The position numbers and the translations under genes were made by a program. A stretch of DNA of 29,443 bases from a virus (taxonomy: Duplodnaviria > Heunggongvirae > Uroviricota > Caudoviricetes), in IMG/VR virus record IMGVR_UViG_2609459795_000003; one strand, 5' to 3'. The notes under the pieces were generated by a model. That model did not search any database. It was not told the origin of the DNA and saw only the letters and a program-made list of their open reading frames with translations. Below, one piece after another: positions 5,988 to 29,443 of the stretch (positions are counted from its first letter, which is position 1; the number at the start of each line of letters is the position of its first letter).

Positions 5988-7820
5988 CTACCAAAATCGG
6001 GTATAGCCAACATCGTGATTTATATCAATGCCACTGGAGCGTGTTTCCGTAACCCGCATACCTGGTGGCATATTTATAAATGATACCTTGATCTCACCAT
6101 CAACTTTTGGCGCGGTAGCTTTATTAATCATGAAGGGATTCGGACCTGTGGCACCGGAGGCGTTGTTTGCCTGAGCCGGATCCACCTCCGGATAAGGAGT
6201 GTATCCCCGTGGCGGTATTCCCGTCCCATAAGCATCATAAGCACCCGCGCCCCACTGCGCCGAGTTAATGGCATCGACCGTGTCACCGGAACTGTCGGTA
6301 AACCATTCAATAATCGGCTTCAGCTTATCCCACATATCCTGAAACCACTTAACAACCGGTCCCCAGTTATTGATCACCATCCCCAGCGGCGACCAGGCAA
6401 AAACCTTCTTCAGAAGTTCCCAGCCAGCCTCAAAATAAGGACTAATGGTTTCCCAGAGCTTCTTAAAATAAGGTCCGACAACATCCCAGTTAGTGATAAT
6501 TAATCCCGCAGCTAGGGCAATCGCCGTCGCAATCATGCCAATCGGCGTCATCGACATGATCCTGCTGACGATACTGATGGCACTGCCCACGCCCATCAAT
6601 CCCAGTTTCAGAATCGCAAGACCGGCAGCAAGCCCGACGACGCCGCGAATAACCCGGGGATTTTCATCCGCAAACTTCGTGAATTTTTCCCCTAACTCCC
6701 CCAGCCATTGCGTGATATTTTTGACGTCACCAGAAAATGCGCCGCCAATAGCCGCAAGGCCGTTAGTTGCGGTCCCCGTCATTGCCTCCCACAGGTTGGA
6801 CAGCGTACCAAGCTGGGCCTGAACACGTTTATTCAGGCTGGCCTGTTTATTCATCTTCTGCTGGATCTGATCGTAATCATCCTTTCCTTTATCGATCAGA
6901 GCATTGACCACCTGAAGGGTTTCGGCATCATCACCAAATATTGCCTTAAGTACACCGGTTCGCTTAACGTCGGTCAGTTTTCGCAGCTTTGCCAGTTGCC
7001 TGAACATGTTATCAAGACCGCCAAAACTCCCTTTGCCGTCAGTAAAATCGAGCTGTACCCCGAGTTTCTGGCGGGCCATAACTTTATTAACGTCCCTGAT
7101 TTTCTTAACGCTTAATCCGGACTGGATAACTTTTCGCAGGGCATTACCTGCCGACTCCCCGTTCATCCCCATCTGATCCATCATGACGCTGATGGGGGCA
7201 AGGCTCTGTGCAGCCTGAAGACCGTCCTTGTTCACCATCTTCAGAACAGAACTGGTTTTAGTGAAGAAGGACAACATGTTGGTATCGTCAACGCCCAGAT
7301 AAAACGCCTTCTGGATAGTGTCGAACAGCCCCATCATGTCTTCTGACGCCGTTCCGGTAGCATCCTGCATCTTTGCAGCAAACTCAGCAGCCGCTTCCGG
7401 TGTTTTTTTCAGTTGTACCGCAAGATAAGCTGTCGCTTTACCCACACCGCCAAGAATATTTTCTGCCGGGATCCCCTGACGCACCAGCATCTGCATCATG
7501 TTCTGGAAATCAGCCGTTGTACCGGGTAGCTGGTTACCCAGGCCAATAGCCAGTTTATTGATGTCCTGAAAGCTCTTTCCGACCTCGCCGTTCGCATCCA
7601 TCATGGCGACTTTCAGCCCGGTGGCGGCGTTTTCCTGATCGGCATAAGATTTCAGGGAAAGCGTCAGACCCGCTGCCAGTCCGCCACCAAGCGCCAGCCC
7701 ACCCTGTGATGCTTCTTCCGCCTGGCGTTTAAATCCCCGGATTTTCTTTTGCATTTTCGACAGCGCGGGAGAAAGTCTGTCGACACCGGTGATCAACGCC
7801 TTAAGCTCAAATTCAGCCAT
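5988..7820 (-). CDS. Tail tape measure protein
   Basis: 610-aa ORF, Ala/Gly-rich with predicted coiled-coil and hydrophobic segments, directly downstream of the frameshifted chaperone pair and upstream of N/P/V baseplate genes. Confidence 0.8.
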   Translation of the reverse strand: MAEFELKALITGVDRLSPALSKMQKKIRGFKRQAEEASQGGLALGGGLAAGLTLSLKSYADQENAATGLKVAMMDANGEVGKSFQDINKLAIGLGNQLPGTTADFQNMMQMLVRQGIPAENILGGVGKATAYLAVQLKKTPEAAAEFAAKMQDATGTASEDMMGLFDTIQKAFYLGVDDTNMLSFFTKTSSVLKMVNKDGLQAAQSLAPISVMMDQMGMNGESAGNALRKVIQSGLSVKKIRDVNKVMARQKLGVQLDFTDGKGSFGGLDNMFRQLAKLRKLTDVKRTGVLKAIFGDDAETLQVVNALIDKGKDDYDQIQQKMNKQASLNKRVQAQLGTLSNLWEAMTGTATNGLAAIGGAFSGDVKNITQWLGELGEKFTKFADENPRVIRGVVGLAAGLAILKLGLMGVGSAISIVSRIMSMTPIGMIATAIALAAGLIITNWDVVGPYFKKLWETISPYFEAGWELLKKVFAWSPLGMVINNWGPVVKWFQDMWDKLKPIIEWFTDSSGDTVDAINSAQWGAGAYDAYGTGIPPRGYTPYPEVDPAQANNASGATGPNPFMINKATAPKVDGEIKVSFINMPPGMRVTETRSSGIDINHDVGYTRFW

Positions 7821-7995
7821 GTGTGCGTTTCTCCTGCTCTATCCTGTTTGCCTGACTGACCAGCAAGGGAATTTCACTGATCGGCATATTCAGCAATTCG
7901 AAAGGATTAATGCGCCAGTAACTGGCGCAGTCAAAGAAGCGATCAGTGAGGTATTCAGCCGTCAGGCCTGGAGGAAAAAACCGGCCACAAGCCAC
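7813..7995 (-). CDS. Tail assembly chaperone, -1 frameshift extension (fusion product spans 7813-8231)
   Basis: ORF in the -1 frame relative to 7962-8231, overlapping it by 34 nt; reads ...FFPPGLT... across the slip site; stop overlaps the tape-measure start. Confidence 0.5.
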   Translation of the reverse strand: MACGRFFPPGLTAEYLTDRFFDCASYWRINPFELLNMPISEIPLLVSQANRIEQEKRTHG

Positions 7996-8231
7996 GCCGC
8001 TGCATTCAGGTCTGCCGGAGACATCTGGTCGACAGAGTTTTGCGGCACTTTCGCCAGCCGCACAATGTATTTCGATACCACATGCGCCAGAAGTCTGACT
8101 GACTCATCCTGATTCATCTGGTAGGGATACCCCAGCTCGCGGACATCTTTCCCGGTGGGCTCATCAAACTCAAGTACGGAGAGTGTCTCGCCATGAGCAG
8201 TAATCGGTTTCTTTAACTCAAGCTCTTTCAT
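7962..8231 (-). CDS. Tail assembly chaperone (upstream frame)
   Basis: 89-aa ORF between tail tube and tape measure; ends ...AGFFLQA* with a slippery heptamer in its last codons. Confidence 0.6.
   Translation of the reverse strand: MKELELKKPITAHGETLSVLEFDEPTGKDVRELGYPYQMNQDESVRLLAHVVSKYIVRLAKVPQNSVDQMSPADLNAAAWLVAGFFLQA
7974..7980 (-). other. Slippery heptamer T TTT TTC (programmed -1 ribosomal frameshift site)
   Basis: Minus-strand codons GGT TTT TTC CTC CAG GCC TGA; the heptamer is in X XXY YYZ register with the zero frame and the -1 frame is open downstream. Confidence 0.55.
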
Positions 8232-8587
8232 TACTGGTAATCCCCTTCTTCACCGTGGAACTCAAGATCAACCGTGCCTTCTTCGGCATTATGGTTCGCT
8301 TCGCCGTGCAGCCAGGCAGACGACAGTACATAGACCTGACCGTTCGCCAGCTCGGCAGTGATGGTCATCTCATCAGACGAGGTGATTTTGCTCACCGGAA
8401 AATTCTTCGGCACCTTGAAGGTCCCTTTGACATAGGGCGCACGGTGAGTTTCCTTGCGGTCCACTGAACCGTCCAGGCCGATGATGTCATCATTGACCGT
8501 CCTGTTCATGGGCACCTCAATGCCGCCGGTCAGCGATAGCTGCTGACCGTCAATTTTGAAATAACAGGTTCCCCCGATACGGGCCAT
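8231..8587 (-). CDS. Tail tube protein (Mu gp40-like)
   Basis: 118-aa ORF immediately after the sheath gene (stop/start overlap at 8587); size and position typical for contractile-tail tube. Confidence 0.7.
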   Translation of the reverse strand: MARIGGTCYFKIDGQQLSLTGGIEVPMNRTVNDDIIGLDGSVDRKETHRAPYVKGTFKVPKNFPVSKITSSDEMTITAELANGQVYVLSSAWLHGEANHNAEEGTVDLEFHGEEGDYQ

Positions 8588-10245: not shown

Positions 10246-10806
10246 TCAGGAAGGAATGGTTATTTCTGTGTGATGTTCGATATCGCCGTCAGGCCCGTTA
10301 CCGGGATCGAGATAATCAACATCAATCGCCAGCGTTTGCAGTTCATCCAGACTGTTCAGATCATCCTGCTGGCGGGTATCGTCTTCAGTCAGCTCGCTGA
10401 TGACCGAAAAATCGAACTGATAAATCAGCTCATGACGATTCAGATCCAGCAGCGTGCCGCCGTCATAGGTAATCGGGTTACCGCACGCCTCCGGGTTCCA
10501 GCCCAGCAGAGCCTTAAAGAGCATCTGCCGGACATCGTCCACCACATCATACGAGGCAAACTGACCGCGCTCATCACGCCCGTTACTCAGTATGACAATC
10601 ACGGAGAAACCCTCTTTCAGCGCCTGCCAGTAGTCGGTCTGGCTTTTGTTTTCTCCCGGAGAATCATCACCCGGTACAACATATGCCGCCGGGAGTTTCA
10701 GCTTTCCGACCTCCGGCAGATTTTTGAACTGGGCCGCACCTGCAACCCGGTTTTCAAAATACGGACAGCGGGCACGCAGTGCAGCAATAACAGGCGTCAG
10801 TTTCAT
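10246..10806 (-). CDS. Mu gp37-like protein (putative tail completion protein)
   Basis: 186-aa acidic ORF immediately upstream of the sheath region; 4-nt overlap with the upstream gene. Confidence 0.45.
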   Translation of the reverse strand: MKLTPVIAALRARCPYFENRVAGAAQFKNLPEVGKLKLPAAYVVPGDDSPGENKSQTDYWQALKEGFSVIVILSNGRDERGQFASYDVVDDVRQMLFKALLGWNPEACGNPITYDGGTLLDLNRHELIYQFDFSVISELTEDDTRQQDDLNSLDELQTLAIDVDYLDPGNGPDGDIEHHTEITIPS

Positions 10807-11309
10807 CTGTGTCGTCGCTCCGGCTTCAGTGATTTACGCAATTCCCGCGCCAGAAAATAGCGTGTCCAGCTGCGGTTCTTTTCAAGCGTTTCCATCATGA
10901 AGTTATTACGTGGAGCCAGTCGCCAGCCGCTGCCACCGGATGCACCACGATGATGGCTGCGACGACGCTTTGCCCCTCGCCTCACTCCATAGAACAAAAA
11001 AGCCGGATAAAAATCACCAGTGATACGGCGGTTTCCCTCTCCATTACGCTGGTTAGGGGCTATACGTGCCATAAAACCAGGGCGATGTTTACTGGCTCTG
11101 GGTACCATGTAACCAATCGAACGAGCCAGGCGTCCGGTCTGATAACCGGGGTTTTCACCCGGTGCCGACCGCGCACGGCGCATCACCAGCCGACGGGCAT
11201 CACGCATATGACGCTGACCAATCGTGACAAACGCCCGCCGGACACGGGCGCGGTTAAAGCGCATCTCCGTGGGCTGCTGAAAATCAACGTGCAAAAAGGA
11301 AGTCGCCAT
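10803..11309 (-). CDS. Putative neck / virion morphogenesis protein
   Basis: 168-aa arginine-rich ORF between head-tail adaptor and tail genes; true start probably an internal Met because the 5' end overlaps the upstream gene. Confidence 0.4.
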   Translation of the reverse strand: MATSFLHVDFQQPTEMRFNRARVRRAFVTIGQRHMRDARRLVMRRARSAPGENPGYQTGRLARSIGYMVPRASKHRPGFMARIAPNQRNGEGNRRITGDFYPAFLFYGVRRGAKRRRSHHRGASGGSGWRLAPRNNFMMETLEKNRSWTRYFLARELRKSLKPERRHR

Positions 11310-29028: not shown

Positions 29029-29443
29029 GTAAGCGTAAAGCCAATGCCGTCTGTAACACCTGCTCCTTGCAGACTAAATTAGAGCTCCTTCTAAATTAGA
29101 CGGAGTTCTATTGATGGATAAACCTACAGACTGGCGCTCCGGAACCCGCCGGATATTTTCTAATGAATTTAAACTTCATATGGTTGAACTGGCTTCGAAA
29201 CCAAATGCCAATGTTGCACAACTGGCCCGGGAACATGGCGTTGATAACAACCTGATTTTTAAATGGCTACGCCTCTGGCAAAGAGAAGGACGTATTTCTC
29301 GTAGAATGCCTCCAACTATTGTAGGCCCTACAGTATCACAATCTTTTCCGACCTCTCCGACTCTGGTTCCAGTGGAACTTATCGACACCCCGCGCTGTGC
29401 TACAGATGCTCCTGCTCCGGAGGCATTATCAGTTGCTTGTGCA
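29029..29443 (+). mobile_element. Left end of an insertion sequence (IS66-like terminus GTAAGCG; continues beyond window)
   Basis: Sequence GTAAGCGTAAAGCC begins at about 29029, 85 bp upstream of a transposase OrfA-type gene; IS66-family ends begin with GTAA as I recall. The other end is outside the window. Confidence 0.45.
29114..29443 (+). CDS. IS transposase OrfA-type HTH protein (partial, runs off window end)
   Basis: Open frame from ATG 29114 to the window end (110 codons: MDKPTDWRSGTRRIFSNEFKLHMVELASKPNANVAQLAREHGVDNNLIFKWLRLWQREG...); pattern typical of IS3/IS66-type OrfA/TnpA proteins. Not in the ORF track because no stop lies in the window. Confidence 0.6.
   Translation, partial: MDKPTDWRSGTRRIFSNEFKLHMVELASKPNANVAQLAREHGVDNNLIFKWLRLWQREGRISRRMPPTIVGPTVSQSFPTSPTLVPVELIDTPRCATDAPAPEALSVACA

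What the first reader, a model, noticed from the sequence alone, without database searches (positions are those of the whole stretch)
7813..8231. Programmed -1 ribosomal frameshift in the tail assembly chaperone pair
The upstream chaperone ORF ends ...GGT TTT TTC CTC CAG GCC TGA. The heptamer T TTT TTC (7974-7980, minus strand) is a canonical X XXY YYZ slippery site, and the -1 frame is open from there to 7813, giving a fusion ...AGFF-PPGLTAEYLTDRFF.... The position, between tail tube and tape measure, is the conserved G/GT-type frameshift location of long-tailed phages.
Basis: partly seen in the sequence, partly recalled or inferred. Interest (0 to 1): 0.5.

Follow-up and report, generated by a model that had tools for sequence, protein, structure and literature searches.

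The report
Tail chaperone frameshift site, P2 type
This is a real but ordinary example of the well-known ribosome slip that lets long-tailed phages make a short and a long tail-assembly chaperone from one gene; here it sits unannotated in a very common E. coli/Shigella prophage.

Summary
On the minus strand an 89-aa chaperone gene (8231-7962, Pfam PF10109) ends ...GGT TTT TTC CTC CAG GCC TGA. The heptamer T_TTT_TTC (7980-7974) is in X_XXY_YYZ phase. The -1 frame stays open to 7813, overlapping the tape-measure ATG, and predicts a 139-aa fusion.

The window is an SfV/e14-type prophage found in about 1,100 of 5,426 complete E. coli genomes. In about 25 distinct relatives (38-99% chaperone identity) NNT TTT TTY is invariant and in phase, while neighbouring synonymous sites vary. 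The 141-nt "gap" is under purifying selection only in the -1 frame (pN/pS 0.20, against 1.2-1.6). It has no conserved start codon or Shine-Dalgarno site.

P2's proven E/E+E' site (GGT TTT TTG) lies at the same position of the same Pfam family. So this is a P2-type -1 programmed frameshift, a known kind. None of the SfV-type records I inspected annotates it.

I found no convincing classical stimulatory structure. A frozen 8-bp hairpin lies 44 nt downstream (7929-7911); its role is unknown. Transcriptional slippage would give the identical protein and cannot be excluded computationally.

The parts
8231..8587 (-). Tail tube gene (118 aa). Its stop overlaps the chaperone ATG (TAATG).
   Evidence: Pfam PF10618 Tail_tube, E=2.4e-33; phrog_185.
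7962..8231 (-). Chaperone ORF 'G' (89 aa), the zero-frame product ending ...AGFFLQA*.
7974..7980 (-). Slippery heptamer T_TTT_TTC, with zero-frame codons GGT TTT TTC.
   Evidence: Phase verified. NNT TTT TTY is invariant in 22 distinct sequence contexts while adjacent Ala, Val and Leu codons vary. U_UU.U_UU.C frameshifts in E. coli reporters at 0.12% alone and 7.6% with the IS3 pseudoknot (PMC4066793 supplement).
7813..7974 (-). The -1 frame extension 'T': 53 codons (PPGLTAEY...RTHG) plus TGA. The fusion CDS is complement(join(7813..7974,7974..8231)), 139 aa.
   Evidence: phrog_32181, E=4e-40. pN/pS is 0.196 in the -1 frame, against 1.58 and 1.24 in the other frames. It is conserved as protein in EPP-1, AH07, F1055, SfIV, YeP1 and Derxia. 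No usable start codon or SD.
5988..7820 (-). Tape measure gene (610 aa). Its ATG 7820-7818 overlaps the T stop (ATGGCTGA), and it has its own AGGAG at 7835-7831.
   Evidence: Pfam PF10145; phrog_28 and phrog_17727; sequence read. The 8-nt overlap with the T ORF end is kept in most relatives.
7911..7929 (-). Conserved RNA hairpin inside the T ORF: UGCGCCAG-UUA-CUGGCGCA, 8 bp, starting 44 nt 3' of the heptamer. Its role is unknown and it may not belong to the frameshift signal.
   Evidence: dG -12.7 kcal/mol, z=-4.0. Invariant in 13 relatives apart from one loop base. Synonymous sites are frozen in 4 of 4 stem codons against 2 of 16 elsewhere. Kept in L030/L031, lost in more distant relatives.
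7850..7967 (-). Candidate long-range closing helix GCCUG (7967-7963) / CAGGC (7854-7850), 6 nt after the heptamer and enclosing the T ORF. Weakly supported.
   Evidence: It is the RNAalifold consensus. The 130-nt fold has z -3 to -6 in the SfV-type clade. However, it is invariant so covariation cannot be tested, two lineages break it without compensation, and distant relatives and P2 lack it.

Best explanation
This is a P2 E/E+E'-type (lambda G/GT-class) programmed -1 ribosomal frameshift in the tail assembly chaperone gene of an SfV/e14-type prophage with a contractile tail. Most ribosomes read GGT TTT TTC CTC CAG GCC TGA and release the 89-aa chaperone. A minority slip back one base, with both tRNA-Phe re-pairing from UUU-UUC to UUU-UUU. 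They then read CCU CCA GGC... for 53 more codons and release a 139-aa fusion just inside the tape-measure gene. By analogy with lambda gpG/gpGT (inference, not tested here), the shared N-terminal domain coats the tape measure protein and the -1 C-terminal domain recruits the tube protein, so the slip rate fixes the ratio of the two products. What is shown here: the site, its phase, its conservation, the coding status of the -1 frame, and the absence of an independent start. What is inferred: that the slip is ribosomal, its efficiency, and the protein function.
For: Site, phase and fusion product. Gene context sheath-tube-TAC-TMP. The heptamer is invariant and in phase in about 25 distinct loci (38-99% chaperone identity, Enterobacterales to Derxia), including where the preceding residue is Asn (AAT) or Arg (CGT), while flanking synonymous sites vary. 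Purifying selection acts only in the -1 frame of the 141-nt gap (0.196 against 1.58 and 1.24). Many relatives have no start codon before the conserved T motif, three have none in the whole -1 ORF, and candidate starts have SD dG near 0 against -5.5 to -12.5 kcal/mol for real starts. P2 has GGT TTT TTG in the same phase at the same DL.A.A..V.GF motif, with an annotated joined CDS and a marked frameshift site; both proteins hit PF10109. P2-type relatives keep NNT TTT TTG, including GAT in SEN5. U_UU.U_UU.C is a measured -1 shifter in E. coli that responds to ribosomal stimulators: PMC4066793. G/GT biology: PMC5009743.
Against: There is no experimental product for this phage family. I found no convincing classical stimulator: the first 45 nt downstream fold no better than shuffles (z about 0), upstream SD-like pairing is inconsistent (+0.6 to -14.7 kcal/mol), and the heptamer alone gives only about 0.12% in reporters. 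One contig (L084) carries GGG TTT TTT CTC, which breaks the canonical phase. No SfV-type record I inspected annotates slippage. A T6 run is also compatible with RNA polymerase slippage.
Confidence: 0.82

Rival explanations
1. Transcriptional slippage. RNA polymerase adds one extra U on the T6 template run, producing a minority mRNA (U7) that encodes the same 139-aa fusion in a single frame.
For: The site is a homopolymer, T6 here and T7 in F1055, SfIV, YeP1 and L027. The fusion peptide would be identical. A small hairpin ends 2 nt before the run in this window, and stronger hairpins of -11 to -12 kcal/mol do so in L018, L023 and L024; this resembles stem-loop-stimulated slippage (from my own knowledge of Penno et al. 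2015, not checked here). PMC4066793 notes that U7/A7 runs are avoided partly because of transcriptional slippage.
Against: From my own knowledge, six T is shorter than the runs usually needed for productive slippage by E. coli RNA polymerase. The upstream hairpins differ in shape and are no more stable than shuffled sequence (z -1.9 to +1.1). The heptamer belongs to the class shown to shift ribosomally in E. coli. The homologous P2 site is annotated as a translational frameshift. Phase conservation fits tandem tRNA slippage, though amino-acid constraint on G-F-F makes this only a weak discriminator.
Confidence: 0.09
2. The -1 ORF is a separate small gene (60 aa from GTG 7995), translated by independent initiation, as annotated in phage vB_EcoM-689R6.
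For: A GTG lies in the -1 frame 15 nt upstream of the heptamer. One GenBank record calls it a hypothetical protein.
Against: There is no Shine-Dalgarno pairing (dG +0.4). The GTG is absent in most relatives, and L023, L031 and L032 have no ATG, GTG or TTG anywhere in the -1 ORF although the protein motif is conserved. The upstream -1 frame opens at variable positions (-15 to -273 nt).
Confidence: 0.03
3. Coincidence: the heptamer is simply how Gly-Phe-Phe happens to be encoded, and the -1 open frame is a non-functional intergenic remnant.
For: TTTTTTC is common in the window (14 copies). The G-F-F residues are conserved at the protein level.
Against: The third base of the preceding codon is T even when the residue is Asn, Arg or Asp. 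The first Phe is TTT in 52 of 52 unique sequences, whereas other two-fold codons vary. The -1 frame has pN/pS 0.196 and is conserved down to 31-39% protein identity. The rough joint chance estimate is about 10^-3.
Confidence: 0.01

Closest known systems
Phage P2 E / E+E' -1 frameshift (Christie et al. 2002; annotated in NC_001895)
   Same: The N-terminal domain belongs to the same Pfam family, PF10109. The T-run is in the same phase at the same ...DL.A.A..V.GF motif. Product sizes match: 91 and 142 aa in P2, 89 and 139 aa here. The position is the same, tube then chaperone then tape measure, with the -1 ORF ending in the tape-measure start. No compact downstream structure is reported for P2 (PMC3091744), and none was found here.
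   Different: The last heptamer base is C (or T in some relatives) rather than G, so the A-site codon is Phe UUC rather than Leu UUG, and re-pairing is fully cognate. P2's -1 tail hits Pfam PF06528, whereas this tail does not; the only link is a weak profile match (hhalign probability 15%, E=0.0017). The rest of the tail module is Mu-like, not P2-like. P2-type genes carry a conserved AAGGUG(G/A) just upstream of the heptamer, which is absent here.
Phage lambda gpG / gpGT frameshift (Levin et al. 1993; Xu et al. 2004, 2013, 2014)
   Same: The logic and position are the same: two chaperones share an N-terminus, a low-level -1 slip occurs near the end of the upstream ORF, and the gene lies between the major tail gene and the tape measure gene. 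The ratio of products controls tail assembly (PMC5009743).
Phage Mu gp41 -2 frameshift (Xu et al. 2004, as cited in PMC5009743)
   Same: The surrounding tail module is the same type: sheath gpL-like, tube gpM-like (PF10618), gpN-like DNA_circ_N. Mu gp41 scores just under threshold on PF10109 (24.7 against 25 bits).
   Different: Mu is reported to use a -2 shift, and its gp41 is 144 aa with its own family, PF23746. This locus uses -1 on a T-run, as P2 does.

Membership tests
G/GT-class tail assembly chaperone frameshift (Xu, Hendrix & Duda 2004) | The gene pair lies between the major tail (tube) gene and the tape measure gene. | tested here: met
   Order is tube 8587-8231, chaperone 8231-7962, -1 ORF to 7813, tape measure 7820-5988; Pfam and PHROG assignments.
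G/GT-class tail assembly chaperone frameshift (Xu, Hendrix & Duda 2004) | The downstream ORF overlaps the end of the upstream ORF in the -1 frame and lacks its own translation start. | tested here: met
   there is no SD, start codons are absent in many relatives, and three relatives have none at all.
G/GT-class tail assembly chaperone frameshift (Xu, Hendrix & Duda 2004) | An in-phase X_XXY_YYZ slippery heptamer lies in the overlap and is conserved among relatives. | tested here: met
   T_TTT_TTC at 7980-7974. It is invariant in about 25 distinct loci, with one exception (L084).
G/GT-class tail assembly chaperone frameshift (Xu, Hendrix & Duda 2004) | The -1 extension encodes a conserved protein domain. 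| tested here: met
   pN/pS is 0.196 in the -1 frame only. The tail is conserved to 31-39% identity with invariant A..W...P...A.RI positions. It matches phrog_32181.
G/GT-class tail assembly chaperone frameshift (Xu, Hendrix & Duda 2004) | Two proteins are produced in a fixed ratio, both are needed for tail assembly, and neither is in the virion. | not testable with these tools
   This needs expression, mass spectrometry and genetics.
P2 GpE family (PF10109 Phage_TAC_7 plus PF06528 Phage_P2_GpE) | The N-terminal domain matches PF10109 above the gathering score. | tested here: met
   59.4 bits (58.0 for the fusion) against a cutoff of 25.
P2 GpE family (PF10109 Phage_TAC_7 plus PF06528 Phage_P2_GpE) | The -1 C-terminal domain matches PF06528 (P2 GpE). 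| tested here: not met
   None of 13 T-domain sequences hits it at E<=1, whereas P2 E+E' hits at 1.2e-21. The profile-profile link is only weak.
P2 GpE family (PF10109 Phage_TAC_7 plus PF06528 Phage_P2_GpE) | The slippery sequence TTTTTTG lies at the conserved G-F position. | tested here: inconclusive
   Position and phase are the same, but the last base is C or T rather than G.
Canonical bacterial -1 PRF signal (dnaX / IS3 type) | A stimulatory stem-loop or pseudoknot lies 5-9 nt downstream, and/or an SD-like element 6-17 nt upstream. | tested here: not met
   z for the first 45 nt is about 0. The only candidate with the right spacing is an invariant 5-bp long-range helix that two lineages break without compensation. 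SD-like pairing is inconsistent. No Rfam family matches.

The most novel reading that the evidence does not exclude
The nucleotide-frozen hairpin (7929-7911) and the unusually structured 130-nt -1 ORF of the SfV-type clade may be a functional RNA element layered on the coding sequence. It could be a distal or long-range stimulator that raises the efficiency of an otherwise weak heptamer. Alternatively, it could be a device acting on the mostly untranslated stretch between the chaperone stop and the tape-measure start, for example blocking Rho loading, or acting as a decay barrier that sets sheath/tube against tape-measure stoichiometry.
Probability: 0.15. Interest if true: 0.45.

Novelty: new member of a known kind. 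Interest (0 to 1): 0.25.

Why it matters
The value is mostly practical. This prophage family is present in about a fifth of complete E. coli genomes and in the Shigella serotype-converting phages SfI, SfII and SfV. Yet the records I inspected either leave a 141-nt hole between the chaperone and tape-measure genes or call a spurious 60-aa ORF. Annotating the joined CDS would correct this. Biologically it adds nothing new in principle. It does show that a Mu-like tail module uses the P2-style -1 T-run site rather than Mu's reported -2 shift. It also offers a natural series (UUUUUUC, UUUUUUU, UUUUUUG) and a frozen downstream hairpin for asking what stimulates these apparently stimulator-less phage frameshifts.

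Tried and rejected
- **Papers not held.** Xu 2004, Christie 2002 and Allison 2002 are not in the library. I could not verify whether SfV is already listed in Xu et al.'s survey. Full-text searches found no paper that reports this family's frameshift.
- **Apparent natural fusions.** Three single-frame database proteins (P0001-P0003) turned out to be error-laden low-coverage assemblies with several scattered frame errors. I rejected them as evidence.
- **Locus search with a broad alignment.** The 7-sequence alignment was too diverse for the search for related loci; a closer alignment worked.
- **Rfam.** No relevant family.
- **Long-range helices from this window's own fold.** They are only 73-85% paired in relatives and break in diverged ones. 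I do not accept them as a stimulator.
- **Upstream SD-like element.** Not conserved in the SfV type.
- **Upstream hairpin before the T-run.** Not conserved or significant.
- **Shared hairpin at the aromatic-Trp motif in P2 and SfV types.** P2 has one, but EtG, FSL SP-004 and YenM do not. Eighty P2-like viral contigs were too similar to test covariation.
- **PDB sequence search.** Only spurious hits.
- **Proximity of the zero-frame stop as a stimulator.** Not conserved: the stop is 3 codons away here but about 20 in F1055 and SfIV.
Full report
**Observation**

On the minus strand, an 89-aa ORF (8231-7962) ends ...GCC GGT TTT TTC CTC CAG GCC TGA. TTTTTTC occupies 7980-7974. Its first T is the third base of the Gly codon, which is the X_XXY_YYZ phase needed for tandem -1 slippage. 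Read from the slip, the -1 frame gives FF-PPGLTAEYLTDRFFDCASYWRINPFELLNMPISEIPLLVSQANRIEQEKRTHG. It stops at TGA 7815-7813, inside the ATG-GCT-GA start of the next gene. The predicted fusion is 139 aa.

**Chance**

The window's 40 long ORFs contain 27 in-phase slippery heptamers in about 8,900 codons. Only one of them opens a -1 frame of 53 codons or more. The bare string TTTTTTC is common: 14 copies against 6.7 expected. What is improbable, roughly 10^-3 by my rough estimate, is the combination of phase, position three codons before the stop, and a -1 frame ending exactly at the next start.

**Context**

- The neighbouring genes are tail sheath (10083-8587), tail tube (8587-8231, PF10618), the chaperone (PF10109 Phage_TAC_7, 59.4 bits against a cutoff of 25), tape measure (7820-5988, PF10145) and a Mu gpN-like protein.
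- The region is 98-99.9% identical to Shigella phages SfI, SfII and SfV and to E. coli prophages. Matches occur in 1,100 of 5,426 complete E. coli genomes.
- The whole window is 99.7% identical over 29 kb to an e14/SfV-type prophage of E. coli AMSHJX01.
- None of the SfV-type records I inspected annotates a slippage product. SfV U82619 and RefSeq leave a 141-nt gap, and one phage record calls a 60-aa GTG ORF "hypothetical". P2 and the P2-like phage EtG do carry joined CDS features.

**Conservation of the site**

I collected 5 diverged phages, 20 genomic loci (38-99% chaperone identity, Enterobacterales to the betaproteobacterium Derxia) and 80 near-identical viral contigs.

- Every locus has a T6 or T7 run in the same phase at the conserved x-F-F position. 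The -1 frame then runs to within a few bases of the tape-measure start, usually with an 8-nt overlap.
- In 22 distinct sequence contexts NNT TTT TTY is invariant. The adjacent Ala codon appears as GCT, GCC, GCG and GCA, Val as GTG, GTT, GTC and GTA, and the following Leu as CTC, CTT and CTG.
- The third-position T persists where the preceding residue is Asn (AAT) or Arg (CGT).
- Among 52 unique SfV-type sequences the first Phe is TTT in all 52 and the Gly is GGT in 51, whereas nearly all other degenerate codons vary.
- The single exception, L084 (GGG TTT TTT CTC), comes from one contig.

**Coding status of the -1 segment**

- In the stretch between the chaperone stop and the tape-measure ATG, pooled pairwise pN/pS is 0.196 in the -1 frame, against 1.58 and 1.24 in the other two frames. 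The chaperone itself gives 0.171.
- The tail is conserved as protein down to 31-39% identity, with invariant A..W...P...A.RI positions. It matches phrog_32181.

**How the segment is reached**

- Independent initiation fails. Candidate starts have anti-SD duplex energies near 0, against -5.5 to -12.5 kcal/mol for real chaperone starts.
- Many relatives have no start codon before the conserved motif. L023, L031 and L032 have no ATG, GTG or TTG in the entire -1 ORF.
- The apparent single-frame fusions in the protein database are assembly artefacts.

**Comparison with known systems**

- P2's record marks a -1 translational frameshift in E/E+E'. Its sequence, GTC GGT TTT TTG TCG, has the same phase and lies at the same DL.A.A..V.GF motif. 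Both proteins hit PF10109, and the product sizes are 91/142 aa against 89/139 aa.
- Six P2-type relatives keep NNT TTT TTG.
- The -1 tails differ. P2 E' hits PF06528 and the SfV-type tail does not. Profile comparison gives only a weak link over the same core (probability 15%, E=0.0017).
- Although the tail module is Mu-like, Mu is reported to use a -2 shift (PMC5009743), and its gp41 belongs to PF23746.

**Mechanism**

- E. coli reporter data put U_UU.U_UU.C in the efficient H_HH.U_UU.Y class. It gives 0.12% frameshifting without a stimulator, 0.9% with the IS911 stimulator and 7.6% with the IS3 pseudoknot. P2's UUUUUUG gives 0.12%, 0.25% and 0.77% (PMC4066793).
- Lambda's product ratio is about 30:1, and P2-type efficiency is reported as 2-3 times higher (PMC5009743). 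Some stimulation is therefore likely.
- I did not find a classical stimulator. The first 45 nt downstream fold no better than shuffles in almost all relatives, upstream SD-like pairing is inconsistent, and Rfam has nothing.
- In the SfV-type clade the 130 nt after the heptamer are significantly structured (z -3 to -6). The minimum-energy fold usually closes with GCCUG/CAGGC, 6 nt after the heptamer.
- That helix is invariant, so covariation cannot be tested. Two lineages break it without compensation, and distant relatives and P2 lack it. I treat it as a lead, not a finding.

**The frozen hairpin**

- UGCGCCAG-NUA-CUGGCGCA (7929-7911; -12.7 kcal/mol, z=-4.0) is invariant in 13 relatives apart from one loop base.
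- Among 11 non-redundant sequences, all four degenerate stem codons are frozen (Cys TGC, Ala GCC, Tyr TAC, Arg CGC). Only 2 of 16 comparable codons elsewhere in the tail are frozen. The hypergeometric p is about 0.003; this is my own calculation and the sequences are related.
- It starts 44 nt after the heptamer, too far for a conventional stimulator.
- It is kept in L030/L031 and partly in L025, and lost in F1055, SfIV, YeP1, L026-L029 and Derxia. P2-type phages show no consistent counterpart. Its function is open.

**Rivals**

- Transcriptional slippage on the T-run would give the identical protein, and computation cannot exclude it. Three points argue against it: the run is short, the upstream hairpin flagged by the terminator scan is neither conserved nor significant, and the heptamer is a demonstrated ribosomal shifter.
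- Independent initiation and coincidence are effectively excluded.

**Verdict**

This is an ordinary member of a long-known class, specifically the P2 E/E+E' type, and it is unannotated in a very widespread prophage family. The only mildly unexpected items are the missing classical stimulator and the nucleotide-frozen hairpin within the -1 ORF.

Noticed in passing
window 7911-7929 (minus strand): An 8-bp GC-rich hairpin (UGCGCCAG-UUA-CUGGCGCA) lies inside the -1 ORF. Its synonymous sites are frozen across 13 relatives and only a loop base varies. It starts 44 nt 3' of the heptamer, and its function is unknown.
   Followed up: partly
window 7821-7961; records NZ_CP030939, U82619, OQ910326, MZ501270, ON470584: Public annotation leaves this 141-nt stretch empty or calls a 60-aa GTG 'hypothetical protein'. 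In the RefSeq record locus tags jump from RS11905 to RS11915. No SfV-type record I inspected has a joined (slippage) CDS.
   Followed up: yes
L084:1740-1770 (IMGVR_UViG_2585427757_000001): This is the only relative with GGG TTT TTT CTC instead of GGT TTT TTC CTC, so the T6 run is shifted by one base out of the canonical phase. It could be a sequencing error or a natural variant that relies on a U_UUU tetramer.
   Followed up: partly
L082 (IMGVR_UViG_2541047860_000003), -1 ORF: The -1 tail matches the window up to ...RINPFELLN and then switches to unrelated sequence (LPFSKVGAKARIARV...). This suggests a mosaic recombination junction inside the T ORF.
   Followed up: no
L066, L069, L101, end of the -1 ORF: The T stop codon is replaced (...THGG), so the -1 product reads on into the tape-measure gene start region. 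This changes the ATGGCTGA overlap.
   Followed up: no
L011 (P2), L193, L194, L195: 5-12 nt upstream of the heptamer: P2-type genes carry a conserved SD-like AAGGUG(G/A)U just upstream of TTTTTTG (anti-SD duplex -8.6 kcal/mol in P2). It is a possible upstream stimulator for the P2 type and is absent from the SfV type.
   Followed up: partly
window ~220-240 (tail-fibre-like gene running off the window start): The only indel between the window and E. coli AMSHJX01 over 29 kb is a C5 (window) against C6 (record) homopolymer. RefSeq flags that gene as frameshifted in the record.
   Followed up: partly
window 29029-29443: The last 415 nt are unrelated to the otherwise 99.7%-identical AMSHJX01 prophage (316 of 415 positions mismatch). 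This is a mosaic boundary in the early/regulatory region.
   Followed up: no
window 10803-11309 (minus strand ORF, codon 104): Another in-phase TTTTTTG heptamer opens a 29-codon -1 frame in a head/tail-completion region ORF. TTTTTTC is also over-represented in the window overall, at 14 copies against 6.7 expected.
   Followed up: no
P0120 (Candidatus Williamhamiltonella defendens homologue): The annotated chaperone ends ...AGFFFPG (95 aa), as if the T-run were longer or the call ran through the slip site.
   Followed up: no
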